Of a stretch of 55,031 bases of DNA, positions 20,486 through 45,905 are shown one piece after another. This DNA comes from Prorocentrum cordatum. Its lineage: Eukaryota. The stretch lies in the NCBI GenBank assembly GCA_963575745.1, contig CAUYUJ010000190.1:62001-117031 (forward strand). The letters run 5' to 3'. The stretch's first letter is position 1, and every line of letters starts with the position of its first letter. The translations under genes were made by a program, and so were the position numbers. Under the pieces are notes generated by a model. It saw only the letters and a program-made list of their open reading frames with translations, searched no databases and was not told the DNA's origin.

Positions 20486-20523
20486 CGGAAGCGCCAGCTG
20501 TCGGAGCTCGGCGCGGACTTCTC

Positions 20524-21801: not shown

Positions 21802-22120
21802 GCGGCGCGCGCCCTGGGGGGGGTGGCGCGGGGGGGGGGGGGGAGGCGGCCCGCGGAGAGGGCGGCGTTGCTTCCGGGGCGGCCCGGGGGCTGCTCTCCG
21901 GAGCCCTCCCGTGGCGGGCAGGGGGGGGCAGCGATAGGGGGGGGGGATGGGCACATGGGGGGGCTGCATCGAACTCCCCTCGCCCATTGATCGCCGACAG
22001 GGGTCTGATAGCCCCACCCCGCCCAGGAACGATTTGCTATCGGGGGCCTATCGCCGATCTTTCGACGATGCGTCGCCGATTCCAGGTCGATGTTTGCCCC
22101 CAGTGCGAGTCCCCCCTATC

Positions 22121-22514
22121 TCGACGGCGAGCCCGGGGGGGGGGAGGAAGTGAGAAGGGGCGGGCCTCCTCAGCAGGCTCGGAAGCCTCCCGGCCTTCCG
22201 AGAAGTTTTGTGCGGCGCCCTCCCTGGAGACACAGAAATCCGAGGCGGGAATTTATCCATATCCACCGCCTGGAGGGTCAGTTCTCGGAGCCTCGACAGG
22301 CGGTGGATATGGACATATTCGGGCCCCCGGGGGCCGAAATATATCCAGATCCACTGCCCGCTGGGGCACCAGGACGTCGGCTCCCAGGCGGTGGATACGA
22401 ATAAATCCCCGCCTCGCAAGAAAGCCTCTCAGAAGGTCGGAGGGCTTCTGAGAAGCCCCGCCGCCTTCTGAGAGGGCCTCCTCCTCCTCGCTTGCCCCCC
22501 CCGCTCGCCGCCGA
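22121..22514. mobile_element. TCGGCGGCGAG-family MITE with a nested second MITE (22241-22416)
   Basis: Outer ends match 10964-11170. Inner TIRs CGAGGCGGGAATTTATCCATATCCACCGCCTGG / CCAGGCGGTGGATACGAATAAATCCCCGCCTCG. Confidence 0.75.
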
Positions 22515-22628
22515 CCAGACACGGGGGTGCGAGTCGCGGAGGCAGGGAGGCGCGCGGCGCGCATGCTTACGCCGAGGGCAGCCGCGCCTCGCGCTGCGCG
22601 GCCCGGGCCGGACAGCTGCTCTTCTTCG

Positions 22629-22756
22629 CAGGGCTGGACCTGAACGTTTCTTTTCGTTTTGTTTTCGCTTTGTTTTTCGTTTCGCTCTGCCTGTTTTCCT
22701 GTATCTCTCTCTGCCAAAACCGAAATCCAGCCAAACAGCGTTCAGGTCCAGCCCTG
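22629..22756. mobile_element. 128-bp hAT-like MITE
   Basis: Perfect TIR CAGGGCTGGACCTGAACG; 8-bp TSD CTTCTTCG/CTTCGTCG. Confidence 0.85.
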
Positions 22757-22794
22757 CTTCGTCGACGGGGCCGGCCTTCATCACGTGGCTCCAG

Positions 22795-22995
22795 AAGGGG
22801 CCCCAGGGAAATTGGTTTTTGAGACGGGCGACGCTCAGGAGGAAAAGAAACAGACAGACACAATTAATCTTCGATTCCATAGAAAATATAGGAAAATATA
22901 GGAAGTGGGGGGGAAGACAGAAACCCAGAAGACATGGGAAAATATGGGGACTATTTTTATCTGTGTGTATTTATTTGTGTGTCCTGGGGCCCCTT
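22795..22995. mobile_element. 201-bp MITE
   Basis: TIR AAGGGGCCCCAGG / CCTGGGGCCCCTT, flanked by CAG on both sides; second partial copy at ~4292-4462. Confidence 0.75.
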
Positions 22996-23429
22996 CAGAT
23001 GCGGATTTCTCAAGTCCGCTCGGCCTCGCCCGCGAGGTCTCTGCGTGACGCCTTCGCTCGCGGTCTCAGAGGTCCCTTTCGCTGGCGTCCCTTGAAGAGA
23101 CGTGTCACTTCCATACATAGGCGAGCGCGCTCCACTGCTCGCAGAGTAACCACTCGCAGATGGTCCGGATCCGCTGCGGGGGACGCACGACCCATTGCAT
23201 TGGGGCACGGGGCTGCCCCGCGCTCGCCGCCGAAGATCGCCGCGCCTCATTTGAGAAGGCCCCTGGCTGCCTCCCACGAGGAGCCCTCCGCCTGCCTGGA
23301 AGGCCTCTAGCTTCCTCTCGTGCCAGGCCTGGAGGACGTGGCCAAGCCAGGGGGGTGGGGCGTCTTCACAGCTCTGCTGGGTGCAGGATGGGCCTGGCCA
23401 GGGAGCAGTGGACATGTATAGATCTCGTT

Positions 23430-23865
23430 CAAGGGAGGAAAATCAATCCAGACCCGATAATTGGCGTTTACTAAAACGTCCCTGGGCGTTTACAAAACAG
23501 CCCTGCCCTGTTCGATTCCTTCTTGGGCCTAGTGCCAAGCCAGGAGGACGTGGCCAAGCCAGGAGGGCGTGCCGTCTTAAGCTCTGCTGGGTTGAGGACA
23601 GGCCTGGTCAGGGATCAGTGGACCTATGTAGATCTCGTCGCCACATTCCGACGCTCCTTGCGACACGGCCCCCGATGACGGGTCCAGCGCCGTTCCCTCT
23701 CCGGGCCGATGCTCGCATTCTGACGCTGGCTTCGCCGCGGTTTCCGACGACGCTGCTGACGCCGCGATGCCCCTCTGAGAAGGCCCCTGCCTCCCAAGAG
23801 GCCCAGAGCGTTTACCAAACGGCCCTGGGCGTTTGCCAAGCGGCCCTGCCCTGCTCGATTCCTTT
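23430..23865. repeat. Dispersed repeat, two related segments here and a third at ~33515-33620
   Basis: GACCCGATAATTGGCGTTTAC.AAA..CCCTGGGCGTTTAC.AAACAGCCCTGCCCTGTTCGATTC is shared. Confidence 0.75.
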
Positions 23866-24239
23866 GCGGGACGGGAACATGACTACAGCCACTGCTTCTT
23901 GTTTGCGCCGCCTTCCAGCCGGCCGAAAAGGAAGCAGTGGTTGTGGTCATTTCCCTGGTGCCAAGCTCAACGAAAATGGGAAATGACCACAGCCACTGCT
24001 GTGTTTCTGCGGGCTGGAAGGCGGCAACAAAAGAAAAGCGGTGGCTGTGGTCGAATTCACGCCCCGCATCCTTCTCTGAGCGCGTTCACGGAGCGACCTC
24101 GCGTTCCAGGGTGGCTCTTTGGGGGGGCGGAGCTTCTTGGACCTCTGCCCGCCGCCCTGCTCCGGGCCCCTCTGAGGAGGCCCCCCTGCCTCCCCAGAGG
24201 CCCTCTCCGCCTGCCCTCGCAGGCCTCTCGGGCCCCCCC

Positions 24240-24397
24240 TCGCCAGCCTGGAACATATCCCTATCCCTACGATTGGCATCGCCTCCTCTCGATGCCGATC
24301 TTAGGGATGCCCTCCGTTTCTGAGAGCGCACCCCCGAGATTGTCGTCGACTTTTGGCCTGCCAATCTTAGGGATGGGGGCACGTTCGGGGCTGGTTG
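24240..24397. mobile_element. TTACCAGCCT-family MITE, copy 2 (opposite orientation, diverged), ~9-bp flanking repeat
   Basis: CCAGCCTGGAACATATCCCTATCCCTA...TAGGGATGGGGGCACGTTCGGGGCTGG; GGCCCCCCC on both sides. Confidence 0.7.
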
Positions 24398-24789
24398 GGC
24401 CCCCCCCCATGCGTGCCGCCCGCCGCGGGGGCTCGCGCCGCCGGCCCGGCAGGCCCTACTCCTTCGACTGGGGGCCATCCCCGGAAGGCCGGGCGGCGGC
24501 ACGCGCAGCACCGACGCCTCGGGGGCCCGCGCGGACGCCTCTCGGGTCGGCGCTGGGCTCCCGCCCGCCCCTCGGGCGGGGGATCGACACTGCACCGCAC
24601 TTCGGGGGCGGAAAAGAGGGGGGGATCACTAGGGGGGGGGGAAGAAGAGAGGGGGGTGATGACCCAGCTTTTGTGGCGCCTCTTCTTATTTCGTTACGTC
24701 CCTGGCCCCCCCCGCTGGGCCGCGCTGCACCACACTGCGCTACCCCAGGGCCGTCTCTGCACCTCGGCTCCGCGCGGGTCGGGCGAAGA

Positions 24790-24925
24790 GAGCTGTGCGC
24801 ACGCACCGGTCCTGGCCAGGCCCATCCTGGGCCCCAGGATCGGTGCAAGTGCCCTCCCGGCCAAGGCGGGAGGGCGTATGCACCGATCTTGGGCTCAGAG
24901 GATGGACCTGGCCAAAATCGGTGTA
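24790..24925. repeat. Palindromic dispersed repeat, second copy at ~48508-48645
   Basis: GCGCACGCACCG.TCCTG...CAGGATCGGTGC..GTGCCCTCCCG.CCAAGGCGGGAG.GC..TGCACCG shared; internally self-complementary. Confidence 0.7.
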
Positions 24926-25142
24926 TGTGCATGGTTCTTTTTCCTCTAGCCTGGCTGTGCTGGCTCGACGGAGCAGTCCTTTTCTTTGGGCGACCAGATT
25001 CTGCAGTCGATCCCCCGCTCGAGCCCCCGGCGGCGCCCCTGGCGCCGCGTGCCGGGAGAGGGGGTCCACCGCCGATCCGAGGCCTTCGTGCGGACCTCCG
25101 AGCGGTGGTGCCTGTGCTGTTGCCTGTCTTTCTGCATCCCTG

Positions 25143-25557
25143 CATCTGCCCATGTTCGGGATGGACTCCGCGGAGAGCAAGCTGCGGCGAGAGCAGAAGG
25201 GCGAGAGCTGCCGGATCCACGGGCACTTCGATACCCACAAGGTTCCTGGGAACTTCCACATCGGGACGCACGGCGTGGTCACTCCAACCTACCTGTCTTA
25301 TTTCGATGAGCCTTCTCCGCCCACGCAGAACATGCTTCATACGATCAACCAGCTAGCATTTATTGACCTGGCCAACGGTACTCTGTTGAATGATACGCAA
25401 CCGTTGGACGGTTTTGAGAGCCCGAAAGCGTTCACTTTCCAGTACTACCTCACCGTGAATCCCGCGACGGTCCTGCCACGTGGAGGAGGCGAAGTGCACG
25501 GCTACCAGTTCAGGTCTGGATCCTTCGTCACCAATGAGCTGATCGGCCCTGCTGTCT
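25143..25557 (+). CDS. ERGIC3/Erv46-like, exon 4 (COPII-coated vesicle C-terminal domain)
   Basis: GESCRIHGHFDTHKVPGNFHIGTH, NMLHTINQLAF, PLDG, FQYYLTVNPAT, YQF. Confidence 0.92.
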
Positions 25558-26064
25558 CGGGTGCTGCCAGACGTGCCCCCGGCCCAAGGTGCCCCCTGGA
25601 GTTTGCCAGGGAGGCCCCCACGGCCTTCGGAGCACTCCTCACGCGGCCCAGCAGGGGCCCCAGGACTCCCAGAACAGTGCGAAAAGCTGGGGGACCCGCC
25701 CGCCCCGCCCGCCCCGCCGGCCCTGGCCTCCTGCCCGCCCGTTTCGTCGTCGCCGGCCTGCTTCTCCCTTCCTCTTCCCCCTCCGGTGCCAGCCGCAGTC
25801 GGCTCAGACGGTGACGAGGCCTCGCTGACGGTACCCGGCGGAGCGTGCTGGGGGCACCTTTCGGTCGGGGCCAGGACGAGCATGAGGCCGTTCCAGAGCG
25901 TGCCGGAACGCTCTCAGAGCGTTCCGGAACGCTTTGAGGAAGCTGCGTCGCCCGAGACCTCGAGAGCATCCGGATCTCAGAGATTCTCGATCCATCTTCG
26001 CCGACGTTATCCTCGTCCTGGCTTTGTCCTAACCTTGGGCTGCAGGCACCTCTCGCAGCACCCG
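25558..26064. mobile_element. Introner-like TIR element forming the intron between exons 4 and 5
   Basis: 33-bp TIR (CGGGTGCTGCCAGACGTGCCCCCGGCCCAAGGT / ACCTTGGGCTGCAGGCACCTCTCGCAGCACCCG, ~27/33) and 7-bp duplication GCTGTCT/GCCGTCT of coding sequence. Confidence 0.8.
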
Positions 26065-26071
26065 GCCGTCT

Positions 26072-26109
26072 TCTTCCGTTACGACATCGACCCCATCCGG
26101 GTCACGTAT
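26072..26109 (+). CDS. ERGIC3/Erv46-like, exon 5 ([PAV]FFRYDIDPIRVTY)
   Basis: Matches the conserved P(G/A)VFF.YD.SPI.V motif. Confidence 0.85.
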
Positions 26110-26180
26110 CGGCCGGGCCTGCCCCTCTGCCGCCCGTCCCCCTGGCTCGGACGGCTTTCTCGTGGCCTCGCTGGATCGGT

Positions 26181-26334
26181 TAGGGGGCCACATGCGAACC
26201 CTACCCCTACCCCCCACGATTTCTGAGGGGGAGGGTGGGGTTCACTTCGTTCGGGAGCTCCCGAGCGAAGTGAACCCCACCCTCCCCCTCAGAAATCGTG
26301 GGGGGTAGGGGTAGGGTTCGCATGTGGCCCCCTA
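26181..26334. mobile_element. 154-bp near-perfect palindromic MITE, 5-bp TSD TCGGT
   Basis: Arms TAGGGGGCCACATGCGAACCCTACCCC... centred on GAGCTC, one mismatch seen. Confidence 0.9.
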
Positions 26335-34046: not shown

Positions 34047-34810
34047 TCTGCGGCTGATCGTGGCGGTGGCACACCTTCGGGGCGTTCCAGAAAGGGTCTC
34101 GCCGGCGAGGGCCGGAGGAGTTGGCGTCTTGCCCTCGGCGGAGGGGTGGCGGAGGGGCGGCCGAGGCCGGCGGAGGCAGCACGAGGCTACTTCAAGGGCG
34201 CCCTCGAGGGCGCGAAGTTATTCGCGCTTCGCGCTTCGCGGTTCGGCTCCGATTCCTCCTCGTCCTCCTCTTCTCCCCTGGGAGGCGGCGCGAGAGGGCG
34301 AAGTTATTCGCACTTCGCGCTTCGCGCAGCGCGAAGCGCGAAGTTGGGAGCCCTTACTACTTCCGGTGCCGGAAGCTGGCGGAGGTAGCAGATGCACTGC
34401 CCAGGGGATGGCAAGGCTTTTCTGTGCAGGGTTTCCAGGACTGGCCATGTGCCGCCTTCTCTTCGGCCCGGGATCTTCGGCGAGGCTGTCGACGTGCCCC
34501 AAAGTCTGGCAGGCAGGGTCGTCCGTGGGGTGATCCCGACGCCGCCGTTCGCACTGCGCGGGGAACAAGCACCATCATAAACATAGCCAAAACTGGGAAG
34601 TCCGCGCAGATTTCTTGGACTGGCGCTGGGTCCCCCTCTCTGGTGCGCAGGGGCGGCGCCAGAGTCGCCGCTAGAGGGTTCAGCGCAAGGATTGTATCTT
34701 CATGCAGGTTTTGCCTCCCTCTGGTAACCCCAGTAAGTCTTTCATGCTGCCAGGATCCCTCCTTAAGCTCTCGATTGCAATGCAACTCGTCCTTCCCCTT
34801 GTTCTTCCCA

Positions 34811-35146
34811 TGATCATCATCATCATCATCACCACCACAATCATCATCAACATCACCACCATCATCATCAGCATCACCACCATCACTATCACCATCACTA
34901 TCACCATCACTACCACCACCATCATCATTATCATCATCAGCATCATCATCATCATAGCATCAGCATCAGCATCAGCACCAGCATCATCATCAGCATCATC
35001 ATCATCATCATCATCATCGTCATCATCAGGATCATCGTCATCATCATCATCACATATGCCATCTCCAGCACCATGACCATCACCATCATCATCAGCATCA
35101 CCACCACCACCACTACCACCACCACCATCCGCATCATCAGCACCAC

Positions 35147-35197
<51 letters not shown>

Positions 35198-35343
35198 TAT
35201 CATCATCATCATCATCATCGTGTCATTGTCATCGTCGTCGTCATCGGCGTCGTCGTCATCATCAGCATCATCATCATCATCGTCGTCATTATCAACATCA
35301 TCATCATAATCACGATCAAATCACCACCATCATCATCAACATC
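34811..35343. repeat. (CAT)n-type microsatellite, left flank of the YR element
   Basis: Read directly from the sequence. Confidence 0.95.
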
Positions 35344-38300
35344 ATGCGCTTCTCTATTCTCCTTGCCGCTCGCGCCCGTTCAGGTCCTGCAGCTTCTCGG
35401 CCCCAAGCTTGCTCTTCTCGCCCCCCGCTCCCCCCGCCGCGCGCGCGCGCGGCCAGGGCGCCAGGGGGCTTGCGGTTGCCACCGCCGCGCAGGTTCCTCT
35501 TCACCTACGCGGCGGTGTTCTACTTGCTGGGCTACGAGCTGCTTTGGGCCACTGCCGCAGGCAGGGGTCCCAACGCTTCCTCCGTGATCTGGCTGGTTCG
35601 GGGTCGCTCTTTCACCCCGCCAGTCAGAGCTCGGGTGGGGGTGGGCCGGCTGCCTCCTGTGGGCACCCGGCAGCGGCGAGTGTGCACACTCTCCGCTCGG
35701 GCGCCGCTGCCCCCCTGGCAGTGCGCGCCCGTGTCATCTGGGCGTGGCCCCAGCCAGGCCGTCCAGGCAGGCGTCTGACCTGCTCGCGGGTTCCTCCCGC
35801 GCCTGCCGCAGCTGCTGCTCGTGTGACGCTGGCTTCTGAGCCCCGTCCCGCAGGCTCGGCATCCGATGGCGCCTGCCTCCCTTTCGCCGCTACAAAACTC
35901 CCCTCCTTCCTCTTGCCTCTTCCCCTTGGACCCCGGAGCGGACGCCCATCTGAGGAGAGGAGTAGGAGGTGGAGTTCCCTCGCATCACGAGGAGGCCGCG
36001 CCATCGGCCCGGAAGAAGAGTGCTCGCGCTACGCCCGTTGCCGGCGCCACTCAAGGGTCGAGCCCGCCCGCCGCCGAACGGTCTATTGCTCGCGCCACGA
36101 GTGTCGCCGCCGCCTCTCGGAACACCGCCCGCCTGGCAACAGGCGGAGAGGCCACCGGCGCGAAGATAACGGCGTCCAGGACGGAGGAGTCGGAGTCGGT
36201 GGACCCTCTCTTTCTCCACTCCCCCTCTACTCCTCCCCCTCCAGTCGCCGCTTCGCCATGGCTCAGCTGCCGTTCGCGGCATCGTTTCCCTCGCGTGGGC
36301 AACGACAGGCGCGCGCGCGCCCAGGGCCCTTCGGGCGGATCGGGACCCAGCGGATTTGAGGGGGTTGGCATGCGCCCTTCCAGCGATGCTGCTACGGCCC
36401 CGCAGGGGAGGGGTCGTGCCGCCCACTCAACCGTCGGCCTGGCTCACCAGTCTGGCCGCCCGCCGCGAGCAAGTTTTCTGGCCGCCTCGCCCGCTCCCGC
36501 GGGTTTTCGGCCCCCTCCAGGGTCGGAGCCGTCGGTTGTCGAAACCAGGCGGGGCGGGAGCTCTGTTCGTTTGGCAATCACCCACGAGCTGTCGCGCGCG
36601 GTGCCTCCCCCGCCTACTGTAGCGGCGGACGCTGTGGATTCTGGCGGTTTGGAGGGGGTGGGTATGCGCTCCTCCAGCGATGCTGTTGCGGCCCCGCAGG
36701 GAGGGGTTCGTACCGCTCCCCCAGCCGCCACCGCAGTTAACCAGCTTAGCACCCCGCCGCGAGACGGTCCCAAGGCAGCTTTGCCCTCGCTTTCGGGACT
36801 CCAGCTCCCTTCAGGGTTGGAGCCGCCGTCACAGACGCGTGCCGAGCGCACAGGGCCACCGCGGAGCAGTCCCAGAGCCGCCTCGCCGACTCGCGCCAGC
36901 TTCCGGCCCCCCCCTGGGTTGGAGTCGCCGTTACAGCCGCGTGCTTGGCGGATGGGCCCACCGCCTGGCTTTGATGCACGAACACCAGCACTGCCGGCGG
37001 CAGCACCAACGCCTGCGCTTACGCCGGCACCAGCGCCAGCGCCTCCTCCTGCGCCGAGGCCGGCACCGATGCCTGCACGAGCGCCAGCACGGACAGCGGC
37101 AGCACCGACGCGTGCGCTTACACCAGCACCAGCGCCAGCGCCGCACCGACGTCAGCATCAACGCCAGCACCTGGCGGCGTCAGCACCGACGCTTGCGCTT
37201 ACGCCGGCACCAGCGCCAGCGCCTACGCCAGCACCGAGGCCAGCGCCGACGCCAGCCCTGACGCCAGCACAGACGGCGGCAGCACCGACGCCTGCGCTTC
37301 CGCCGGCACTAGCGCCAGCGATTACGCCAGGGGGCGCTTCGACAGTGTTGCCCTTCCACCCGCCACCTGGGTTTGAGGCGCTGTCGGGCCCTGCGGTCTG
37401 GCAGGTGGGGCCATCTCCCTGCCTCGCTAGCCTGGAGGCGGGCGCTCGGGTGCCGCCGCCGCACAACCGTTGCGCGACCGACGCCGCGGTTGGGTTTCCT
37501 TTTCCTGACAGCGGAAGTGGGCAGTCGGCGATCCCCTGCCTAGGGGCCTCACCCCTGCCTCCAAGGGAGCCGCTTGCGGTCAGTGCCTCCCGTGCGAGCG
37601 CCCACGCCATCTTGCACTCGCTCGGGCTACTCGGGAATCCAACCTCGGCGTCGACGGACCCCGCGTCCCTGCCAGTGTCGGCCCCCTTGTTGTCAGGCGC
37701 TACGCGACATGTTTCTGCTGCTGCTGCAGATGGTTTCGGGGTAGCTGGTACCTGCCTGCCGGGCGCCGCTGCTTCGGCGCCACAGAGCACGGGTCGCACC
37801 GATCCCTCAGCCCCCGCCGCAGCTCGCGATTTGGGCACGCCGCCGCAAAGCTGTCCTATGGCCACTTCGCCGTGTCTTCCAGGCTTCCTGCCCCCACCAG
37901 GGCTGGAGCCGCCGTCACGGCCGTGTGCCTCGCGTCGCTCTGGGGGCGCCCTCCGCGAGGCTAGAGGCGCTCCAGCCCTTCGCCGACGTGGCGGTTCGTC
38001 TGGGTTTTCAGCCATTCGGGATCGCGGCCACGTTGGCCAGGGCACCTGCGCCACCTCATCGCGTCCAGCTGCGCGCTGGGACCCCAGCTTCGGCGCTCGT
38101 CTCAGCGTGGGGGAAGGCTCGGTCGAACGCCCCTCCGCAGGCGCTCCCGCCTGCCCCTCCCGCGCGCGTCCCCCCGCCACTTGGGCGGGCCGACCCCGCT
38201 GCGGTCGCCGGCTCCGCCGAGGGGGTCGCAGGGGACGCACTGGGGCTGCCTGCCGAGGCGCCCCAGAGGGCTCTCGATCTGGCTTTCATCTGCCAGCGGG

Positions 38301-41300
38301 AGGCGCTGCAGCGGTGCATGTTCATCGTCCAGCTGGTGGGGGGCCGCGGCTACCTCGGAACCGCATGGTTCCTCACGGGGATCAAGCCCCCCCCGTGTCG
38401 CGTGACCTGGTGCGGGTGGCGGCAGGCCCTTGCCGCGCCCGTTCCGCCGGCTCCCAGGCCGCCGGCGGAGCCGCCCTCCACGGCGGCGCATCCCACCACA
38501 GGGGTGGACGCACGCGAGCTGCGTGCACCGGCCGAGGGTTCACGCAGCGGCGAGTCGCTGTAAGCGACGACGCTGCTGCTGCCAGGCGTGCCTGGGCTGA
38601 GCGAGGCCGTGAGAGTAGGCACGCGCTCCTCCAGCGATGCTGTTGCGGCCCCGCAGGGAGGAGTTCGTGCCGCTGTCGCGACTCTCGCTCTACCCCTGGC
38701 TCCCCTTCAGGGCCGAGTGGCCATTTTGGCAATTTTCACCGTGCTGCCGAAGCCCCTTCCGACGGGGACTCAGGCGCACCGCCCGTCGCTTCCATCGGTT
38801 CTGTTGCCAGTGGGAACCCCCCTCGAGTCGACTTGTCCTCCGGGGTCACTACCGTGCCACCGGCCCCTCGAGTTGACCTGTCCTCAGGGGCCGCTGCCAG
38901 TTCCGAAGCCTCTCGCGTTGACTTGTCCGCGGGGGATTCGAGGCCGTCTGCACCTACCGGCACCACGCCTTCCTTTCCCAAGGTCGCGCCCTTTGTCGCT
39001 GACCTTTCTGCCTTGCTGCGCCTGTTTCCTGGCGCGAACATCGATATCACCCATTGGGCTGCTGCTTTAGCTCAGGTTGGGATGGGTGCTCGTTGTTCTC
39101 TGTCGTCTTTCACCCGCACCTCCCTCAGCGCGTCGGCCCGGGACGGCTCGTACGTGTTGGAGCCGCCTCCCCGCGATCCTTGGCCGTGCCCTCCAGCGCC
39201 TTCTCTGCCGCCGCCTCCTGTAACCTTGACGGGTCGCGCGCGCGAGCGGTGGCGCTTGAGGCGCGCAGCGCGCACCTTAGCACAGCACGCCGTTGTTGCG
39301 CTAAACTGGCTCACCTTGGGCCATCCCAGCCTCGCTCCCATCGAGGCCCATGTGTGCACAGCGGCCACGCCCTGCCAGGAGGGTACTCGCGACCGCCTCG
39401 AGCGGTTGTGTCGGATCGCAGTTCGCCTTGCCCGCGGCGGCAAGAGCGACTTAGGTCGGGCTTTCTCCAAGTTCGACGCCACTGAAGTCTCGCTCCATGG
39501 CCTGGCCACCCATGTTGCAGCTATCGAGGCTTCCTTCACCTCCTCTTCCCAGGTGCCCGCCCCCATGCGGCAATGCCCGTCCAGCGCGCCTCCTGTGCCT
39601 GGATCGTTGGCTTCAGCGGCAGGCTGGGACTCCACCCAGTCTGAGCCCTTCGACCTCCGAGTCAGGGCGTCCCGCATCAAGTGGGATTATTCTCCGACGT
39701 TTGATCCCACTCCCTTCCTCGCCGACGCGCGGGTCCGCAAAGCTTTTCACGACCCCGAAACCATGCGTCTTCCGTCGGCCGAGTGGCCATCGGGCCTCCC
39801 GGGGGCCCGCGTCCACATGGACCGTGATCAGCTGTGGGAGCTTCTTCGGAAGTGGGACTCCTGCGGCGCCCTGTACTTGACTCCCACCTCAGACCTGGCT
39901 TGGGATGAGGCTTGCGGAGCGTTCAGGGTCCCCAAGGACAGCGAGTACGATCGGCTGATTCTTAATCCCACGGTGGTGAACAGTCGCTGTCAGAGCATTT
40001 CTTCCAGCACTCAGCGCCTTGGGCAGGGTTTCCTGCTCTGCCGCATGGGTCTCGCTGCAGGCGAGTGGTTGGTGGTGTCATGCGATGACTTACGCGAGTT
40101 CTATTACACCTTTAAGGTGCCACCAGCTCGAGCGAAGCGCAATGCCCTCCGCGTGCGGCTGCCCAGTGCGCGGTTCAAGGCATTCAATGCGTGGCGCCCT
40201 GACCTCGAGGGCGTGGATGTTTCCCCGTGCTTGAACGCGCTGGCTATGGGCGACAACATGGCCGTGGAAATCGCAAACTCTGCGCACGAGGGTGTCCTTC
40301 GCAGCTTCGGGGCTCTTCGCCCCCATGAGCAAGCTGTGCACAGGACTCCGTTTCCGCGTGGCCATTTCGTCGAGATGTTGAACATCGACGATCACACGGG
40401 CTTCCAGAAGCTGTCCTGGAATGGCCTAGCTCCCCGCCCCGACGACCCAAATCGTCGTGATAAGGAGGTGTTTGCTGCGTGCGACCGCGGCTACCCTCGC
40501 GTGGGGCTGGTCCAGCACCCTGGTAAGCGGACCCGTGGCGCGACTCATAAGGTCGTGGTCGGTGCCGAGGTGGAGGGTCGGATAGGCATCGTGTGCGCGC
40601 CTCTTGTGCGCACCGTGGCCCTGTGCCGGCTAACCCTCATCCAAGTGTACCTCGGTCATTCGACCCGCGCGGTGCTAGCGTCGCTCGTCGGATGTTGGGT
40701 GCAAGTGTTTCTCTTTCGCAGGCCCATGCTGTCGATTTTCACGCACGTCTACAACTTCCTGTCGTCGTTGTCGACGGAAGATGGGTTCGAATACGAGCTC
40801 CCCGTCTCCGTTCGCGACGAGCTGCTAGCCTGCGCTTACCTGGCCTTTGTCGCCATTAACGACCTTCGCGCGGGCTACTCCCCCGAAGTGTTCGGCACGG
40901 ACGCCTCCCTCGGCTGGGGGGGAGTGGTCCGCTCCTCGATCAGTCCACATCTCTCCCAAGAGTTGTGGCGCCGGTCTGAGCACGGAGGGTGGCACACGGT
41001 CCTCCACAACCGAAGTTTGCTTGCCGTGCTGGACCGGGGAGTCCCATTAGGCCCCGAGCTCACCCAGCTGCATCGCGATTTGGGGCTCCCTTCCATTGAG
41101 CCCCCAGTCGCGCCGCACTGGATAAGCGAACTGTCGGAAGCGCTGCACTTCCGCCTGGCCTATAAATGGGAATTTCGAATGCCGCGTCACATCAACATCC
41201 TGGAGGCCACTGTTTTCAAGAGTCTGTGCAAGTACTGCTGCGTTCGCATGCCGGACTCTCGGATCCCTGTGCTGCTCGATTCTAAGGTCGCCTTGGGCGC

Positions 41301-44300
41301 GGCCGCCCACGGTCGCAGCAGCTCTCCAGGGCTTTCCCATGTCCTCAGCACGGCTTTGCCTTACATCTTGAGCGGTGGCTTATACATGGGTGGCCTCTAT
41401 GTGCCCACCGACGTCCACAGGGCGGATGACCCCACCAGGAATCGGCCTGTGCGCCCCCCCTCCAGGGAGGCTCCTGCGTGGCTGGTCGACGCTGAGGCGG
41501 GCGATTTCGGTAGGTTCGATTGGGTCGCACTTGCTGACGCGCATTCTCCCTACCCCACTTGCCTATGGGGACGGCTCGCCGCGCTAGTCCTAGCACAGGG
41601 GCTCCTTGCGCGGGGGAATGCCCGGGCCGCCCATGGTCTGGCGGCACGTCCCCCTCTCTCGCCCGCCCCCGCGGCCGACGCATGGTTTGCAAGCGCGGCC
41701 GCCGCAACTGGGGTCGAGGCGCCGGTTTTTCTCGAAGCTCCCGGCACGCTTCCGCAGCCCGACCCAGCGCAAGCCGAGGCTCCAGAGATTCCTAGGCGGA
41801 ACGCCTCTCCCGCGGTGGGCGGCGGATGCCTCGGGGGAAGGAGCGCCGAAGGTGCCGCTGAGCTCTCCGCGCTTCCCCATGAAGCCTCCCAGGGCGCGTC
41901 GCCTTTCGAAGCGCCCTTCAGGCCGGGTGCGGCCCCCGTTGCCGCTGGCCCGCCCGGCGCGCCCGCCCAGCTTTCGGCGGCCAGGCCGAGGCTCGCCGCC
42001 CGGACCGATCCCAAGCGACCCGCCAAGGTTGCAAAGGTGCGGACGGCGCGCGAGCTCCTTCAGCTCAAACCGGGTGCCGACCGGTCGGCCATGGAACGCC
42101 AGTTCCGGCGGTTGGCCACGCCGCACCGCCCGGACAGGGCGCGCCATCGCCCATTGTCCGCATCGGACCGCGCGGACGCCTCTCCCCTCTGGTCCAGGTT
42201 CTGCGACGCGAAGTCGCTCCTGCTTGGCGAGGCTTCTCGTTGCCAGCCGGGAGCGGGAACCCTACCTTGCCAGGAACGGGAGCACGGGACTTGCCGCGGA
42301 GGCGTTCGTGCGGGCCCGCGCCTATATGCAAGAGCGCGGCCGTGGCCAGACGGGCGCGCCGCCGGCGCCTGCCAGTGCTTGCAGCCCGAGCTGGGCGGAG
42401 CACGGCCGGATTTCGGGGCCTCCGCCTCTGGGACTCCCTCGGCGCCCTGCTCTTCGCGCGGAAGGCGCCATCGGCCAGCTCGTCCAGCGGAAACGGTTCG
42501 CGCTGAGCGCCCCCGTCGTGCGCGCGCTGCTCGTGCGCCCGCGGCGCTGCTCTCGGCGCCTGGCGCGGCCGCGCCGCCCCCGGGTCGTAGGGCCAGGCGC
42601 ACTGCCAATTTCGCGCTGTGGGGCCAGCCTTGCGCGCGCCATCGCGCCGCCGCGTCGGCGGACGAGGGGCGTGAGCCTTTGCCTTCGCGCTCCTGGAGCC
42701 CGGGCCTTGGAGCAGGCGCGCCCGGTGCCCCCTCCAGCAGCGCCCGGCTCGGCAGCACCTCGAAGTGGCGCGACGCGCCGCTTGCGCCGGGGGACGGCGC
42801 CCGCGTTCCGCATACTTTTTCCGACCGCGCCCCGCGACGCCAGTCGGACTCGCAGGACGCGCCGCCAGTGGCGTCGCCGCGGGGCTCTCGCCGCGCACCG
42901 CCGCCGCGGGGCGCTCGCGCGAGCACCCGCTCGGCTGGCCCAGCCGCCCGCTTCGCGGCCGCTCCGCCGCCGCGCGGCTCCGGCAGCGACCCCGCTTGCG
43001 ACCTCGCTTCCGGAGCTCGCGACCCGCCCACGGTCACCGGCTCGGCGAGCTCCGGGAGCTTGCCGGTTGGCGCATTCTCGGCGCGGGGCGCCAGGATCAG
43101 CATGGGCCCTCCTGCTCGCGCCGCCAGTGCGCCACCAGCATTACGCGTCGACGGTGCACCCATGCGGGTTCCTGCGGATCGATTGCGGCCGAACGCGCTT
43201 GCGCGCATACCCGCGGCCTCGGGGCCCGCCGCCGCCTCCTTCGCCATGCTTGAGGCCGCGCCCCGTGCCGGGGCCAGTCCGAGGTCTCTTGGCCCCGCGG
43301 CCGCGCCTCGCGCCGCACTTCTGTCGGTGGACTCGCCCGTTGATAGCGCGGATCTCCCCCAACCTAGCGGAGCCGCGCACGAGAAGGGCTCAGACGCGTT
43401 GGCGGCTGCGCCACACCTTCTCGACTCCTTGGAGCCCTCTGCGCGCGCGGCTCGAGGCCTGCCCCAAGACGGGGCGTGCGCTACCTCGGTTGCGATGCGC
43501 ACCAGCCGAGTCGCTGGCCCAGCGGCCGCGGTTGCGCGGCGCGCGCGTGCCGACCGGCGCGCTCGCGCGCGATTCCTATCCTCGGTCGCCGCTGCCGAGG
43601 CCGCTCTCACCGAGGTTATGCTGGGAACAGGCGAAGAGACTGGCGAGAGCGCGGGAGAGCTGGCGAAGCGAATGCAGACGCTCTTAGCCGAGCTCGAGCG
43701 GCGCAAGGATGCGATGCGCATCGCCCGCTCTCGTCTTGCTGATTGCGTCAGAGAGGCCGCCTCCGCTGGATTCCCTGAGGCGGCGGCGTACTCGCCCTCG
43801 CCTGTGGCAGCGCCAACTGCCCTCGCGGAGGTGGACAGCGCCGCCGAGGCGGAGGCCAGGGTTGGTACGGGCTTGCACAGCGAGGCTGAGCCGGCGCGGC
43901 ATCGCGACGAGAGTGCCACCCTTGCCTGGCCTCGGCGAGTCCCCCACCCCGCGCGCCGCCGCCGCCGCAGGGCGGCAGAGACGGAGCCTCCCAGCGCTCC
44001 CTGGTCAGGCGCTGTTCTGACTTCGGCCGGCGATCGGCGCAAAAGAGCTCTCTACGCGTTCGAATTGTGGTGCGCCGAGGACGCAGGGGTGGCGCCACTT
44101 CCGCTGTATCGTAGTGGGATCCTGCTGTCGAGGTTCCTCGCAACGTTCGGCGTGTGGCTGCACGACGCAGGTTTCCCGCTCAACATCCTGGTGCACGCGA
44201 TCATAGGCGTCCAGGCACGTCTCCCTCATTGGAAGCCCTTTCTCACCGAGGCGTGGGGAGTGGCGAGGGCCTGGAAGCGGTCTCAGCCACCTCGCCTTCG

Positions 44301-45435
44301 GCCGCCAATGCCACGAGCGCTCTTGCGCGCTATGGTGGCAGTTTGTTTCACTTGGGACTGGCCAGTCATGGCCGCCTTGCTGCTGGCAGGGTTCACGATG
44401 TCCTTGAAGCCCGACGAGCTGCTGTCAGCCCGTCGCTGTGACCTTTTGTTGCCTTCGGATTGCCTTGAGTCCTCAGGCAACGCTTGGATGACCATTCCCG
44501 ATCCAGTGAGCAGCATGTCTTACCCGCCACAGCACGCCTGGTGCTCTGACAAAGCGGTGGTTCGGGTTTTGGAGATGGTCTTTCGGCATTTGGGTCCCAC
44601 CGATCCTCTGTCGACCTTTGGTCAAAGCGGCTTCCGTACTCGGTGGAACCATTTACTTTTGGCGTTAGGCGTACCGCTCGCCGAGACGCCAGCGGGGTTC
44701 CACTTGACCCCTGCTTGCCCCCGCGGCTCAGGCGCGACAGACTTTCATACGGCCACAGAAGATATTGGTCGTATCTTCTGGCGTAGTCGCTGGCGCCAGG
44801 CGTCTAGCGCGGAGCGCTTCTTGCACGACGATGCTTCCGCCGCGATGCTTTCCGCCTTGCCTGATGCCGCTCGGGCCCGTGTCACCTACTTCGATGGCGC
44901 GAGCGACTTCCTTGTCGCTTCCTTTCTGAACTGTGGCCCCACTGCGTGGCCCCTTCTGCTCGCGGCCGCCCGCCAAAACCTTGTCACTTCGCAAGGGCTT
45001 TGAGCCTGGGTATGGCTGCTACGGCCACCTGGCCGTCCAGATGGCCTCGTTGGACGAGGTCGTCTGAGGGCGCCGCACGGCTTGGGCGCGGCGCCCCGTC
45101 ATCCTTTACGGGTCGCCGCGCGCGCGCCGCGCGCCCGCCTCCGGGACCTGATCGCTTGCGCTGCGTGCGGGAGAATGCGCTTCTCTATTCTCCTTGCCGC
45201 TCGCGCCCGTTCAGGTCCTGCAGCTTCTCGGCCCCCTCCCCCCCTCCCCGCCTTACTCAGGCAGGCCTGCGGCGCTGCTACGGCCACCTGGCCGTCCAGA
45301 TGGCCTCGTTGGACGAGGTCGTCTGAGGGCGCCGCACGGCTTGGGCGCGGCGCCCCGTCATCCTTTACGGGTCGCCGCGCGCGCGCCGCGCGCCCGCCTC
45401 CGGGACCTGATCGCTTGCGCTGCGTGCGGGAGAAT
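35344..45435 (+). mobile_element. Full-length tyrosine-recombinase (DIRS-order, PAT/Ngaro-like architecture) retrotransposon with split direct repeats
   Basis: A1 35344-35404 = A2 45175-45235 (61 bp). B1 45015-45176 = B2 45274-45435 (162 bp). Order A1-ORF-B1-A2-B2, no TSD, encodes RT/RNase H/YR. Confidence 0.93.
35866..45003 (+). CDS. 3045-aa polyprotein: low-complexity N-terminus, RT (~39920-40600), RNase H (~40890-41440), DnaJ-like domain (~42043-42225), coiled coil (~43550-43770), tyrosine recombinase (~44030-44830)
   Basis: RT: FRVPKD..DRLILN, DDLREFYY, LAMGD..AVEIA, IDD. RNase H: TDAS..GG, HINILE, LLDSKVALGA..GRSSS, YVPT..RADDPTR. YR: RPPMP, GF..LKPDE, RGSGAT, RSRW. The true start and the frame of the first third are uncertain. 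Confidence 0.88.
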   Translation: MAPASLSPLQNSPPSSCLFPLDPGADAHLRRGVGGGVPSHHEEAAPSARKKSARATPVAGATQGSSPPAAERSIARATSVAAASRNTARLATGGEATGAKITASRTEESESVDPLFLHSPSTPPPPVAASPWLSCRSRHRFPRVGNDRRARAQGPSGGSGPSGFEGVGMRPSSDAATAPQGRGRAAHSTVGLAHQSGRPPRASFLAASPAPAGFRPPPGSEPSVVETRRGGSSVRLAITHELSRAVPPPPTVAADAVDSGGLEGVGMRSSSDAVAAPQGGVRTAPPAATAVNQLSTPPRDGPKAALPSLSGLQLPSGLEPPSQTRAERTGPPRSSPRAASPTRASFRPPPGLESPLQPRAWRMGPPPGFDARTPALPAAAPTPALTPAPAPAPPPAPRPAPMPARAPARTAAAPTRALTPAPAPAPHRRQHQRQHLAASAPTLALTPAPAPAPTPAPRPAPTPALTPAQTAAAPTPALPPALAPAITPGGASTVLPFHPPPGFEALSGPAVWQVGPSPCLASLEAGARVPPPHNRCATDAAVGFPFPDSGSGQSAIPCLGASPLPPREPLAVSASRASAHAILHSLGLLGNPTSASTDPASLPVSAPLLSGATRHVSAAAADGFGVAGTCLPGAAASAPQSTGRTDPSAPAAARDLGTPPQSCPMATSPCLPGFLPPPGLEPPSRPCASRRSGGALREARGAPALRRRGGSSGFSAIRDRGHVGQGTCATSSRPAARWDPSFGARLSVGEGSVERPSAGAPACPSRARPPATWAGRPRCGRRLRRGGRRGRTGAACRGAPEGSRSGFHLPAGGAAAVHVHRPAGGGPRLPRNRMVPHGDQAPPVSRDLVRVAAGPCRARSAGSQAAGGAALHGGASHHRGGRTRAACTGRGFTQRRVAVSDDAAAARRAWAERGRESRHALLQRCCCGPAGRSSCRCRDSRSTPGSPSGPSGHFGNFHRAAEAPSDGDSGAPPVASIGSVASGNPPRVDLSSGVTTVPPAPRVDLSSGAAASSEASRVDLSAGDSRPSAPTGTTPSFPKVAPFVADLSALLRLFPGANIDITHWAAALAQVGMGARCSLSSFTRTSLSASARDGSYVLEPPPRDPWPCPPAPSLPPPPVTLTGRARERWRLRRAARTLAQHAVVALNWLTLGHPSLAPIEAHVCTAATPCQEGTRDRLERLCRIAVRLARGGKSDLGRAFSKFDATEVSLHGLATHVAAIEASFTSSSQVPAPMRQCPSSAPPVPGSLASAAGWDSTQSEPFDLRVRASRIKWDYSPTFDPTPFLADARVRKAFHDPETMRLPSAEWPSGLPGARVHMDRDQLWELLRKWDSCGALYLTPTSDLAWDEACGAFRVPKDSEYDRLILNPTVVNSRCQSISSSTQRLGQGFLLCRMGLAAGEWLVVSCDDLREFYYTFKVPPARAKRNALRVRLPSARFKAFNAWRPDLEGVDVSPCLNALAMGDNMAVEIANSAHEGVLRSFGALRPHEQAVHRTPFPRGHFVEMLNIDDHTGFQKLSWNGLAPRPDDPNRRDKEVFAACDRGYPRVGLVQHPGKRTRGATHKVVVGAEVEGRIGIVCAPLVRTVALCRLTLIQVYLGHSTRAVLASLVGCWVQVFLFRRPMLSIFTHVYNFLSSLSTEDGFEYELPVSVRDELLACAYLAFVAINDLRAGYSPEVFGTDASLGWGGVVRSSISPHLSQELWRRSEHGGWHTVLHNRSLLAVLDRGVPLGPELTQLHRDLGLPSIEPPVAPHWISELSEALHFRLAYKWEFRMPRHINILEATVFKSLCKYCCVRMPDSRIPVLLDSKVALGAAAHGRSSSPGLSHVLSTALPYILSGGLYMGGLYVPTDVHRADDPTRNRPVRPPSREAPAWLVDAEAGDFGRFDWVALADAHSPYPTCLWGRLAALVLAQGLLARGNARAAHGLAARPPLSPAPAADAWFASAAAATGVEAPVFLEAPGTLPQPDPAQAEAPEIPRRNASPAVGGGCLGGRSAEGAAELSALPHEASQGASPFEAPFRPGAAPVAAGPPGAPAQLSAARPRLAARTDPKRPAKVAKVRTARELLQLKPGADRSAMERQFRRLATPHRPDRARHRPLSASDRADASPLWSRFCDAKSLLLGEASRCQPGAGTLPCQEREHGTCRGGVRAGPRLYARARPWPDGRAAGACQCLQPELGGARPDFGASASGTPSAPCSSRGRRHRPARPAETVRAERPRRARAARAPAALLSAPGAAAPPPGRRARRTANFALWGQPCARHRAAASADEGREPLPSRSWSPGLGAGAPGAPSSSARLGSTSKWRDAPLAPGDGARVPHTFSDRAPRRQSDSQDAPPVASPRGSRRAPPPRGARASTRSAGPAARFAAAPPPRGSGSDPACDLASGARDPPTVTGSASSGSLPVGAFSARGARISMGPPARAASAPPALRVDGAPMRVPADRLRPNALARIPAASGPAAASFAMLEAAPRAGASPRSLGPAAAPRAALLSVDSPVDSADLPQPSGAAHEKGSDALAAAPHLLDSLEPSARAARGLPQDGACATSVAMRTSRVAGPAAAVARRARADRRARARFLSSVAAAEAALTEVMLGTGEETGESAGELAKRMQTLLAELERRKDAMRIARSRLADCVREAASAGFPEAAAYSPSPVAAPTALAEVDSAAEAEARVGTGLHSEAEPARHRDESATLAWPRRVPHPARRRRRRAAETEPPSAPWSGAVLTSAGDRRKRALYAFELWCAEDAGVAPLPLYRSGILLSRFLATFGVWLHDAGFPLNILVHAIIGVQARLPHWKPFLTEAWGVARAWKRSQPPRLRPPMPRALLRAMVAVCFTWDWPVMAALLLAGFTMSLKPDELLSARRCDLLLPSDCLESSGNAWMTIPDPVSSMSYPPQHAWCSDKAVVRVLEMVFRHLGPTDPLSTFGQSGFRTRWNHLLLALGVPLAETPAGFHLTPACPRGSGATDFHTATEDIGRIFWRSRWRQASSAERFLHDDASAAMLSALPDAARARVTYFDGASDFLVASFLNCGPTAWPLLLAAARQNLVTSQGL

Positions 45436-45715
45436 CATCATCACCATCACCATCATCATCATCATCATCATTATCAGCATCAGCATCGCCATCACCATCG
45501 CCATCACCATCACCATCATCATCACCACCATCATCATCATCATCATCACTATCAGCATCATCATCATCACCATCACCATCACCATCACAATCATCAACAC
45601 CATCATCATCATTATCAGCATCAGCATCAGCATCAGCATCAGCATCAGCATCATCAACACCATCATCATCATCATCAGCATCATCATCATTATCATCAAC
45701 ATCATCATCATAACT

Positions 45716-45754
<39 letters not shown>

Positions 45755-45905
45755 GTCATCGTCATCGTCATCGTCATTGGCATCGCCATCACCACCACCA
45801 CCACCACCACCACCACCACCACCACCACCACCACCACCACCACCACTACCACCACCACCACCACCACCACCACCACCACCACCACCACCACCACCACCAC
45901 CATCA
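45436..45905. repeat. (CAT)n/(CAC)n microsatellite, right flank of the YR element
   Basis: Read directly from the sequence. Confidence 0.95.

What the first reader, a model, noticed from the sequence alone, without database searches (positions are those of the whole stretch)
42043..42225. DnaJ-like domain with HPD changed to RPD between RNase H and recombinase
Seen: ARELLQLKPGADRSAMERQFRRLATPHRPDR...DASPLWSRFCDAKSLL aligns by eye with the J-domain pattern (E.LG....A....IKKAYRKLA..YHPDK...A...F..I..AY..L); CGC is one change from CAC. Established: HPD is required to stimulate Hsp70; polyomavirus T antigens carry J domains, and hepadnaviral RT activation needs Hsp40/Hsp70. I know of no J domain in a YR retrotransposon. 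Inference: the family may recruit Hsp70 to its RT/YR, or carry a decoy.
Basis: partly seen in the sequence, partly recalled or inferred. Interest (0 to 1): 0.75.

Follow-up and report, generated by a model that had tools for sequence, protein, structure and literature searches.

The report
Degenerate J-like segment in DIRS retrotransposon
A jumping gene of a red-tide dinoflagellate carries, in the long spacer between two of its enzymes, a short stretch that weakly but consistently resembles the chaperone-recruiting J domain yet lacks its essential histidine, so it looks more like a decaying captured fragment than a working chaperone hook.

Summary
The sequence is there as described. It lies in frame in a 3058-codon open frame (35827-45003, +) of a DIRS-like tyrosine-recombinase retrotransposon. 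A source names the only matching outside protein as Prorocentrum cordatum.

Every library's best match to the stretch is a J domain, but each match is weak:
- Pfam DnaJ gives 17.6 bits against a cut-off of 27.8 and covers profile positions 4-40 of 63.
- Five of 8 PDB matches are J domains (E 0.1-0.8).
- NCBIfam gives DjlA and TopJ (E 0.04-0.08).
- In the ESM Atlas, 20 of 30 nearest clusters are DnaJ, while a neighbouring control piece gave no hit.

HPD reads RPD, helix IV has no counterpart, and a single-sequence AlphaFold model is poor (pLDDT 53.9).

The stretch sits in an ~830-codon, 74% GC linker that replaces the short 2A-like junction of relatives. That linker is kept open in frame (0 of 1000 dinucleotide shuffles).

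Only near-identical copies of the same family carry the stretch, and all read RPD. The only other carrier among 152 held proteins is a gene model of this same family, and none of 27 relatives that extend past RNase H has it. No sister copy with HPD was found, and selection could not be measured.

Most likely it is a real but degenerate J-domain remnant, not a canonical Hsp70 activator. Chance resemblance remains a serious rival.

The parts
35344..35404 (+). Terminal repeat A1 of the element
   Evidence: 61 nt, 100% identical to 45175-45235. It fits the 'A-coding-B-A-B' layout described for DIRS elements in PMC5890265.
35827..45003 (+). Single long open frame (3058 codons stop to stop, first Met at codon 14): polyprotein of a DIRS-like retrotransposon
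   Evidence: The frame has no stop, while the other frames have 11-29 stops upstream and 1-13 in the linker. Zero of 1000 dinucleotide shuffles keep the frame open, for the upstream part and for the linker alike.
39814..40884 (+). Reverse transcriptase region (FRVPKDSEYDRL at 39922, IDDH at 40375)
   Evidence: phmmer against 1.84 billion representatives gave 4045 relatives at E <= 0.001, and the best long ones are 37-42% identical over this part. Pfam does not recognise it, as PMC5890265 notes for Symbiodinium DIRS RTs.
40885..41442 (+). RNase H region (DAS ... HINILE ... LLDSKV ... RADDPTRN)
   Evidence: Aligned with relatives. P0002 is 76% identical over it.
41560..41640 (+). Place where relatives carry a 2A/StopGo-like motif; here it is lost
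   Evidence: Eight of 153 held proteins have D[VI]E.[NH]PGP right after RNase H, and the window frame has no [NH]PGP. The aligned stretch reads LWGRLAALVLAQGLLARGNARA.
41560..44040 (+). Family-specific linker, about 827 codons, 74.4% GC, rich in Ala/Arg/Pro/Gly
   Evidence: Composition and stop counts are, and frame +1 is open in 0 of 1000 shuffles. It has no relative except P0013 among 152 held proteins. Pfam and NCBIfam find nothing in it but the J-like match.
42034..42228 (+). J-like segment (KVRTARELL ...
   Evidence: Searches give J domain as the best match. AlphaFold places helices at model residues 20-23, 32-43, 58-61 and 71-79, with pLDDT 53.9.
42127..42135 (+). RPD (CGC CCG GAC) at the place of the J-domain HPD
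   Evidence: Sequence and the alignment to a solved J domain (2ys8). Both copies in P0013 have the same letters, as do the near-identical contigs of runs X1 and X3.
43076..43961 (+). Distal linker part shared with a sister subfamily (about 80-83% nt identity), including a helical stretch GELAKRMQTLLAELERRKDAMRIARSRL
   Evidence: From, contigs X1 record 3 and X3 record 10. The listed indel pairs net 0, -3 and 0 bases, so the frame is kept. Codon-position GC is coding-like again from about 43327.
44041..45000 (+). Tyrosine recombinase region, with Phe (TTC 44818-44820) where relatives have the conserved Tyr
   Evidence: Alignment with P0003, P0004, P0006, P0152 and P0153, 31-36% identity to the Symbiodinium proteins, codon.
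45015..45435 (+). Right-end repeats B1 (45015-45176), A2 (45175-45235) and B2 (45274-45435)
   Evidence: B1 and B2 are 162 nt and 100% identical, and A2 equals A1.

Best explanation
The window holds a young copy of a DIRS-like tyrosine-recombinase retrotransposon of a dinoflagellate. A source names the only outside protein that shares the linker as Prorocentrum cordatum.

The element is read as one giant polyprotein. Relatives join RNase H to the recombinase through a short 2A/StopGo-like peptide. This family has lost that motif and has an ~830-codon, very GC-rich linker of low-complexity sequence that is still kept in frame.

Inside the linker lies a ~65-residue helical island that descends from a J domain. 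I infer that it was picked up from a cellular message by template switching during reverse transcription. It has since decayed:
- Helices I and II and the loop are still recognisable.
- The loop to helix III is lengthened.
- Helix IV has no counterpart.
- The histidine of HPD is an arginine.

Without HPD it cannot act as a canonical activator of the Hsp70 ATPase. I read it as a passenger relic carried along by a recently amplified family, not as a working co-chaperone module.

Shown here: the in-frame place of the stretch, the weak but consistent likeness to J domains, RPD in every copy seen, and absence from other families. Inferred: J-domain ancestry, capture by the element, and loss of function.
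For: J domain is the best match in four libraries:
- Pfam gives 17.6 bits, E 0.004.
- Five of 8 PDB hits are J domains.
- Both NCBIfam hits, 2 of 2, fall on J domains.
- In the ESM Atlas 20 of 30 nearest clusters are DnaJ, with 174 of 256 features shared. A same-composition neighbouring piece scored nothing.
- None of 148 control frames of the window hit DnaJ.

The linker is likely translated. It has 0 stops in 827 codons against 1-13 in the other frames. Zero of 1000 dinucleotide shuffles are open over the whole linker, and 13 of 1000 over 41560-43075 alone.

Signs of decay:
- RPD stands for HPD.
- The Pfam match stops at profile position 40 of 63.
- The score is below the cut-off.

The stretch is restricted to one family:
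- P0013 holds two copies, both with RPD.
- P0013 is the only one of 152 held relatives with a DnaJ or linker match.
- Relatives go from RNase H to the YR through about 40-60 residues with D[VI]E.[NH]PGP.
Against: - No single match is significant once the by-eye choice from about 110,000 six-frame residues is allowed for. The whole-frame Pfam E-value is 0.25.
- There is no confident fold (pLDDT 53.9) and no structural neighbour.
- No parent J protein was found. Word-indexed searches of 5.8 billion clusters returned only P0013.
- Codon-position GC in the J-like part shows only a faint coding pattern: GC1/2/3 are 0.77/0.66/0.79 and then 0.74/0.70/0.75.
- 'Relic' against 'in use' could not be tested, because all copies seen are nearly identical and no dN/dS could be computed.
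- The family looks recently amplified and keeps the frame open, which also fits a linker that is needed.
Confidence: 0.5

Rival explanations
1. Chance resemblance. The stretch is an Arg/Ala/Leu-rich helical patch of a fast-evolving GC-rich linker that happens to fit the first 37 positions of the J-domain profile, with no J-domain ancestry.
For: - All scores are below threshold: 17.6 and 11.9 bits against a cut-off of 27.8, and E 0.04-0.8 elsewhere.
- The piece was chosen by eye from the six-frame translation of a 55-kb window, one of very many windows read.
- Fifteen of 148 control frames also reach E <= 0.004 for some family.
- The defining HPD is missing, helices III-IV are not matched, and the AlphaFold model is poor.
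- The Atlas notes say that 4-10 in 100 shuffled proteins get a first hit of 0.9 or more.
Against: - Four libraries built in different ways all name the same family.
- All 15 control false hits lie on simple repeats, and this stretch does not.
- Eight frames of the same linker read in other frames gave nothing at E <= 0.1.
- The neighbouring linker piece scored nothing in the Atlas.
- 174 of 256 features are shared, a level the tool says 9 in 10 true family members reach and only 1-2 in 10 chance hits or distant relatives.
Confidence: 0.3
2. A working J-like module without HPD. The family keeps the stretch because it binds something, such as Hsp70 or a J protein in a non-stimulating way as HPD-less J-like proteins do, or the element's own RT or YR. 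It would aid folding or assembly of a 3000-residue polyprotein, or act as a decoy.
For: - The linker is kept open in frame.
- The family looks recently amplified: its termini are 100% identical and near-identical contigs occur in several runs.
- RPD is the form in all copies seen.
- The stretch stands out as a protein-like island in a featureless linker.
- HPD-less J-like proteins with regulatory roles exist (recalled, not looked up here).
Against: - No conservation beyond near-identical copies could be shown.
- Only the same-family gene model P0013 among 152 held relatives carries it.
- The sister subfamily's contig shares only 43076-43961 and is unlike upstream.
- The match is partial.
- The window copy's recombinase has Phe at the conserved Tyr, so this copy at least may not be autonomous.
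Confidence: 0.13
3. The linker is not translated. It would be a non-coding spacer, or inserted foreign DNA, between two separately expressed genes, and its open frame would be a by-product of 74% GC.
For: - Two other frames of the linker are also long and open, at 697 and 663 codons.
- There is little codon-position periodicity over 41527-43326.
- PMC5890265 describes the YR of SymbioDIRS-Dnmt3 as a separate ORF.
Against: - Zero of 1000 dinucleotide shuffles leave frame +1 open over the linker.
- That frame is the one that joins RT-RNase H to the YR.
- The indels against the sister subfamily keep the frame.
Confidence: 0.07

Closest known systems
J domain (Pfam PF00226, DnaJ/Hsp40 co-chaperones)
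   Same: It is the best match in Pfam, PDB, NCBIfam and the ESM Atlas. Helix II has a basic face (QFRRLA), a loop follows, and there is a helix with W..F.DAK.LL where helix III lies.
   Different: RPD stands in place of HPD. The score is 10 bits under the cut-off and only positions 4-40 of 63 are matched. By eye the loop after the motif is about 7-10 residues longer than usual. There is no helix IV signature. The setting is the inside of a retrotransposon polyprotein.
J-like proteins that lack HPD
   Same: They have a J-type sequence without the catalytic tripeptide, so they would bind without stimulating.
   Different: Those proteins are conserved cellular proteins with known partners. Here neither a partner nor conservation has been shown.
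SymbioDIRS / SymbioDIRS-Dnmt3 retrotransposons of Symbiodinium (PMC5890265, passages read)
   Same: The RT-RNase H and the YR are homologous: 37-42% identity for the RT region and 31-36% for the YR. The repeats are laid out A-coding-B-A-B. Pfam does not see the RT.
   Different: The window element lacks the ~400-residue insertion that sits inside RNase H in P0003-P0006. It has no 2A-like motif. Instead it carries an ~830-codon linker with the J-like stretch.
Host J-protein (DNAJC14/Jiv) sequence inserted into pestivirus polyproteins (PMC13517609 and PMC9364808, search listing and abstract starts only; which part of the host protein is inserted is recalled)
   Same: It is a precedent for a replicating RNA-based element that takes up part of a cellular J-protein message into its polyprotein.
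   Different: That case is an RNA virus with a known functional consequence, and the captured part need not be the J domain itself. Here the source gene is unknown and no effect is known.
J domain of polyomavirus large T antigen (recalled)
   Same: It is a J domain carried by a mobile genetic entity to use host Hsp70.
   Different: T antigen keeps HPD and depends on it. This stretch does not keep HPD.

Membership tests
J domain (PF00226) | Profile score at or above Pfam's gathering cut-off (27.8 bits) | tested here: not met
   17.6 bits on the 127-aa piece and 11.9 bits on the whole frame. P0013 reaches 28.3 bits only because it holds two copies.
J domain (PF00226) | His-Pro-Asp tripeptide in the loop between helices II and III | tested here: not met
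   Arg-Pro-Asp, CGC CCG GAC at 42127-42135. The two copies in P0013 read the same.
J domain (PF00226) | Four-helix fold with an antiparallel helix II-III hairpin | tested here: inconclusive
   Single-sequence AlphaFold gave pLDDT 53.9 and pTM 0.21, with helices where I, II and III would lie. Foldseek against PDB found no match.
J domain (PF00226) | Full-length match including helices III and IV | tested here: not met
   The match covers profile positions 4-40 of 63 only. A helix-III-like W..F.DAK.LL is seen by eye, and nothing is seen for helix IV.
J domain (PF00226) | Stimulates the ATPase of an Hsp70 partner | not testable with these tools
   This needs a bench assay.
DIRS-like YR retrotransposon | RT and RNase H homologous to those of DIRS-type elements | tested here: met
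   There are 4045 relatives at E <= 0.001. The best long ones (P0003-P0006) also end in a YR. One YR-search hit (P0153) and another (P0152) are named Symbiodinium by sources, and the family is described in PMC5890265.
DIRS-like YR retrotransposon | Tyrosine recombinase instead of a DDE integrase | tested here: inconclusive
   The YR region aligns along its length with 5 relatives and keeps LRGSGAT as PRGSGAT. However, Phe stands where all 5 have the conserved Tyr, and the PKT.RFARRQH motif is changed. Homology is met; an intact active site is not shown for this copy.
DIRS-like YR retrotransposon | Split or rearranged terminal repeats (A-coding-B-A-B) | tested here: met
   A is 35344-35404 and 45175-45235. 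B is 45015-45176 and 45274-45435. Both pairs are 100% identical.

The most novel reading that the evidence does not exclude
An active dinoflagellate DIRS-like retrotransposon family has taken a cellular J domain into its polyprotein and keeps it in an HPD-less form. In that form it would work as a non-stimulating Hsp70 or J-protein binding site, or as a decoy, that helps a 3000-residue polyprotein fold or escape host control. It would be the first chaperone-type accessory domain in a retrotransposon. Full-text searches found no paper describing one.
Probability: 0.12. Interest if true: 0.7.

Novelty: new variant of a known kind. Interest (0 to 1): 0.35.

Why it matters
Retrotransposons now and then acquire host domains. 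Cytosine and adenine methyltransferases in DIRS-type elements are the known cases (PMC5890265, and the preprint 10.64898/2026.05.21.726589 from its listing). A J domain would add chaperone recruitment to that list and would link retrotransposon replication to Hsp70, as is known for some viruses.

The evidence here supports only a degraded, family-restricted J-like remnant. As it stands, the case is a modest curiosity and an example of how giant, GC-rich dinoflagellate retrotransposon frames pick up and wear down foreign sequence. It would become important only if older copies with HPD, or binding to Hsp70, were found.

Tried and rejected
- No whole genome is held for this window, so copies could not be collected from the assembly.
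- The look-up of earlier findings returned nothing.
- AlphaFold on the single sequence gave a low-confidence model, and Foldseek against PDB gave no match. Neither is informative.
- Two scans of metagenome contigs, anchored on the distal linker plus the YR start and on RNase H, found no relative.
- Word-indexed protein searches with the J-like piece, over proteins of 330-1052 aa and of 213-2000 aa, returned only P0013. The search anchored on the YR returned only two Symbiodinium proteins with no Pfam domains.
- No RNA holder was listed among the sequencing runs, so expression could not be examined.
- In run X9 there was no cover over 42037-42218.
- A search for 'HPD' in the 151 proteins held at the time found 28 places in 26 of them. 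By eye most are not J domains, and the recurrent ones are the RT motif GL..HP.K.
- One Pfam call failed because my coordinates were out of frame. I did not repeat it, because the whole-frame scan had already covered those parts.
- I did not send a complex prediction with Hsp70, because I do not claim binding.
- I did not build a J-domain profile of my own to score shuffles. The curated Pfam and NCBIfam profiles had already been applied.
- Supplements of the papers were not opened.
Full report
**What is at the coordinates.** The stretch lies inside one very long open frame, 35827-45003 on the + strand, 3058 codons from stop to stop. The Arg of RPD is CGC at 42127-42129, one change from CAC. The observation as a reading of the sequence is correct.

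**What the host element is.**
- phmmer of residues 1330-2250 of the frame against 1.84 billion representative proteins found 4045 relatives at E <= 0.001.
- The best long relatives (P0003-P0006) are 39-42% identical over the RT part. They run RT, RNase H, a short junction and then a tyrosine recombinase.
- Two YR-search hits are named Symbiodinium by their sources. PMC5890265 describes such elements as SymbioDIRS, with repeats laid out A-coding-B-A-B and an RT too divergent for Pfam (passages read).
- The window element has that layout. A is 35344-35404 and 45175-45235. B is 45015-45176 and 45274-45435. Both pairs are 100% identical.
- Pfam sees no RT, RNase H or YR in it, nor in 152 relatives.
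- Motif places: RT from 39922 with IDDH at 40375, RNase H 40885-41442, YR from 44041.
- The only outside protein that shares the linker, P0013, is named by its source as Prorocentrum cordatum.

**The linker.**
- In eight of 153 held proteins a 2A/StopGo-like D[VI]E.[NH]PGP follows RNase H, and in the full-length ones the YR starts within a few dozen residues of it.
- The window frame has no such motif. At the aligned place it reads LWGRLAALVLAQGLLARGNARA, and about 827 codons of 74.4% GC sequence follow before the YR.
- Two other frames there are also long and open, and codon-position GC is nearly flat over 41527-43326, so openness alone is weak evidence.
- Frame +1 nevertheless has 0 stops against 4, 13, 10, 1 and 10 in the other frames.
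- No dinucleotide shuffle of the linker, 0 of 1000, leaves frame +1 open. For 41560-43075 alone the figure is 13 of 1000.
- A sister subfamily seen as contigs in runs X1 and X3 shares 43076-43961 at about 80-83%. Its indel pairs net 0, -3 and 0 bases, so the frame is kept.
- I conclude that the linker is probably translated with the rest.

**Is the stretch a J domain?** Each test gives the same family, weakly.
- Pfam DnaJ gives 17.6 bits, E 0.004, on a 127-aa piece and 11.9 bits, E 0.25, on the whole frame. The cut-off is 27.8 bits, and only profile positions 4-40 of 63 are matched.
- phmmer against PDB sequences gave 8 hits at E <= 10, of which 5 are J domains (RabJ, three DNAJA1 entries, DNAJC27) with E 0.097-0.79.
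- NCBIfam gave two hits, over the J domains of DjlA and TopJ, at E 0.044 and 0.075.
- The ESM Atlas gave recognition 3328 and 20 of 30 nearest clusters DnaJ, with score 0.92 and 174 of 256 shared features. The tool says 9 in 10 true members reach that feature level and only 1-2 in 10 chance hits or distant relatives do.

**Controls.**
- A neighbouring 81-aa linker piece gave recognition 1472 and no hit.
- 148 other open frames of the window (36,718 aa) gave no DnaJ hit at E <= 1.
- Fifteen of those frames reached E <= 0.004 for some family, and all 15 lie on simple-repeat arrays.
- Eight frames overlapping the linker in other phases gave nothing at E <= 0.1.

**Against the J-domain reading.**
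- The piece was chosen by eye from about 110,000 six-frame residues, so no single E-value survives correction.
- The HPD is not there.
- Helix III is matched only by eye, after a longer loop, and helix IV not at all.
- AlphaFold on the single sequence gave pLDDT 53.9, and Foldseek found nothing.
- I put J-domain ancestry at roughly two in three.

**Do sister copies keep HPD?**
- P0013, a gene model spliced together from pieces of two tandem elements, holds the stretch twice. Both copies read RPD, with one other residue changed. It passes Pfam's cut-off, at 28.3 bits, only because the two copies add up.
- In runs X1 and X3 one near-identical contig covers the stretch.
- Run X7 has two short contigs over the stretch, with two differences each at places the tool did not list.
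- The sister subfamily's contig becomes unlike the window upstream of 43076.
- Among the 152 held relatives only P0013 matches the linker or DnaJ. Of the 29 relatives with the RNase H end motif, 27 extend 75 aa or more beyond it, and none of these has a J domain.
- The stretch is therefore confined, as far as I could see, to one young family, always as RPD. No HPD-bearing copy was found, and selection could not be measured.

**How it most likely works.** Established knowledge, recalled and not looked up here, is that the His and Asp of HPD are needed to stimulate the Hsp70 ATPase. An RPD stretch with a partial J match should therefore not act as a canonical co-chaperone. My best reading, at confidence 0.5, is a J-domain fragment captured into a fast-evolving linker and now decaying, carried by a recently amplified family. 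The rivals are:
- chance resemblance (0.30);
- a retained HPD-less binding module (0.13);
- an untranslated spacer (0.07).

The window copy's recombinase has Phe (TTC 44818-44820) where all five aligned relatives have the conserved Tyr, and it lacks their PKT.RFARRQH motif. This copy, and perhaps the family, may therefore not move on its own.

**Literature.** Full-text searches for J domain or DnaJ together with DIRS, retrotransposon or polyprotein terms listed no paper describing a J domain in a retrotransposon. In one search, none of the 15 listed papers holds 'J domain'. In one search, the listed papers concern host J proteins and viruses. The nearest precedent in those listings is the insertion of host DNAJC14 sequence into pestivirus genomes (abstract starts only). 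2A-type peptides are reported from dinoflagellates in PMC12338488 (passage read).

**Verdict.** The element is a new variant of a known kind, a DIRS-like element with an unusual linker holding a degenerate J-like stretch. Interest is modest unless older HPD-bearing copies or Hsp70 binding turn up.

Noticed in passing
P0003, P0004, P0005, P0006, P0009, P0092, P0110, P0153; aligned place in the window 41560-41640: Eight of 153 held proteins carry a 2A/StopGo-like D[VI]E.[NH]PGP right after RNase H, before the recombinase in those that extend that far. The window element has lost it. PMC12338488 mentions 2A peptides in dinoflagellates but does not mention DIRS.
   Followed up: partly
window 44818-44820 and 44500-44560: In the window's recombinase, Phe (TTC) stands where 5 of 5 aligned relatives have the conserved Tyr of E[YFH]Y, and the relatives' PKT.RFARRQH motif reads PVSSMSYPPQH. 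This copy may be unable to integrate by itself.
   Followed up: partly
window 34748-35310 and 45435-45900: CAT/CAC-type microsatellite arrays abut both ends of the element. Either the element sits in a microsatellite or the arrays belong to its ends.
   Followed up: no
window 20467-26223, + strand: Exons of a host gene with ERGIC_N and COPIIcoated_ERV domains (an ER-Golgi vesicle transporter, ERGIC3-like) appear in three separate open frames. Their E-values are 1e-7 to 8e-13, above Pfam's cut-offs.
   Followed up: no
P0003-P0006: An insertion of roughly 400 residues splits the RNase H of these relatives and is absent from the window element. By the description in PMC5890265 it should be the Dnmt3-type methyltransferase, but Pfam at E <= 0.01 did not name it.
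   Followed up: partly
relatives P0063, P0064, P0073, P0090, P0100, P0101, P0110, P0120; window about 40560: The RT motif GL..HP.K reads HPDK in many relatives (HPGK in the window). It is a trap for anyone looking for J domains by the HPD tripeptide.
   Followed up: yes
window 42660-43951: A contig of run X7 joins 42660 to 43951 with 23 other letters in between, which suggests a copy with most of the distal linker deleted or replaced (table 5c; depth 2).
   Followed up: no
window 35827-39400: The first ~1190 codons of the long frame are Pro/Ala/Arg/Ser-rich with internal repeats and have no recognised domain. Even so, the frame is kept open: 0 stops against 11-29 in other frames, and 0 of 1000 shuffles.
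   Followed up: partly
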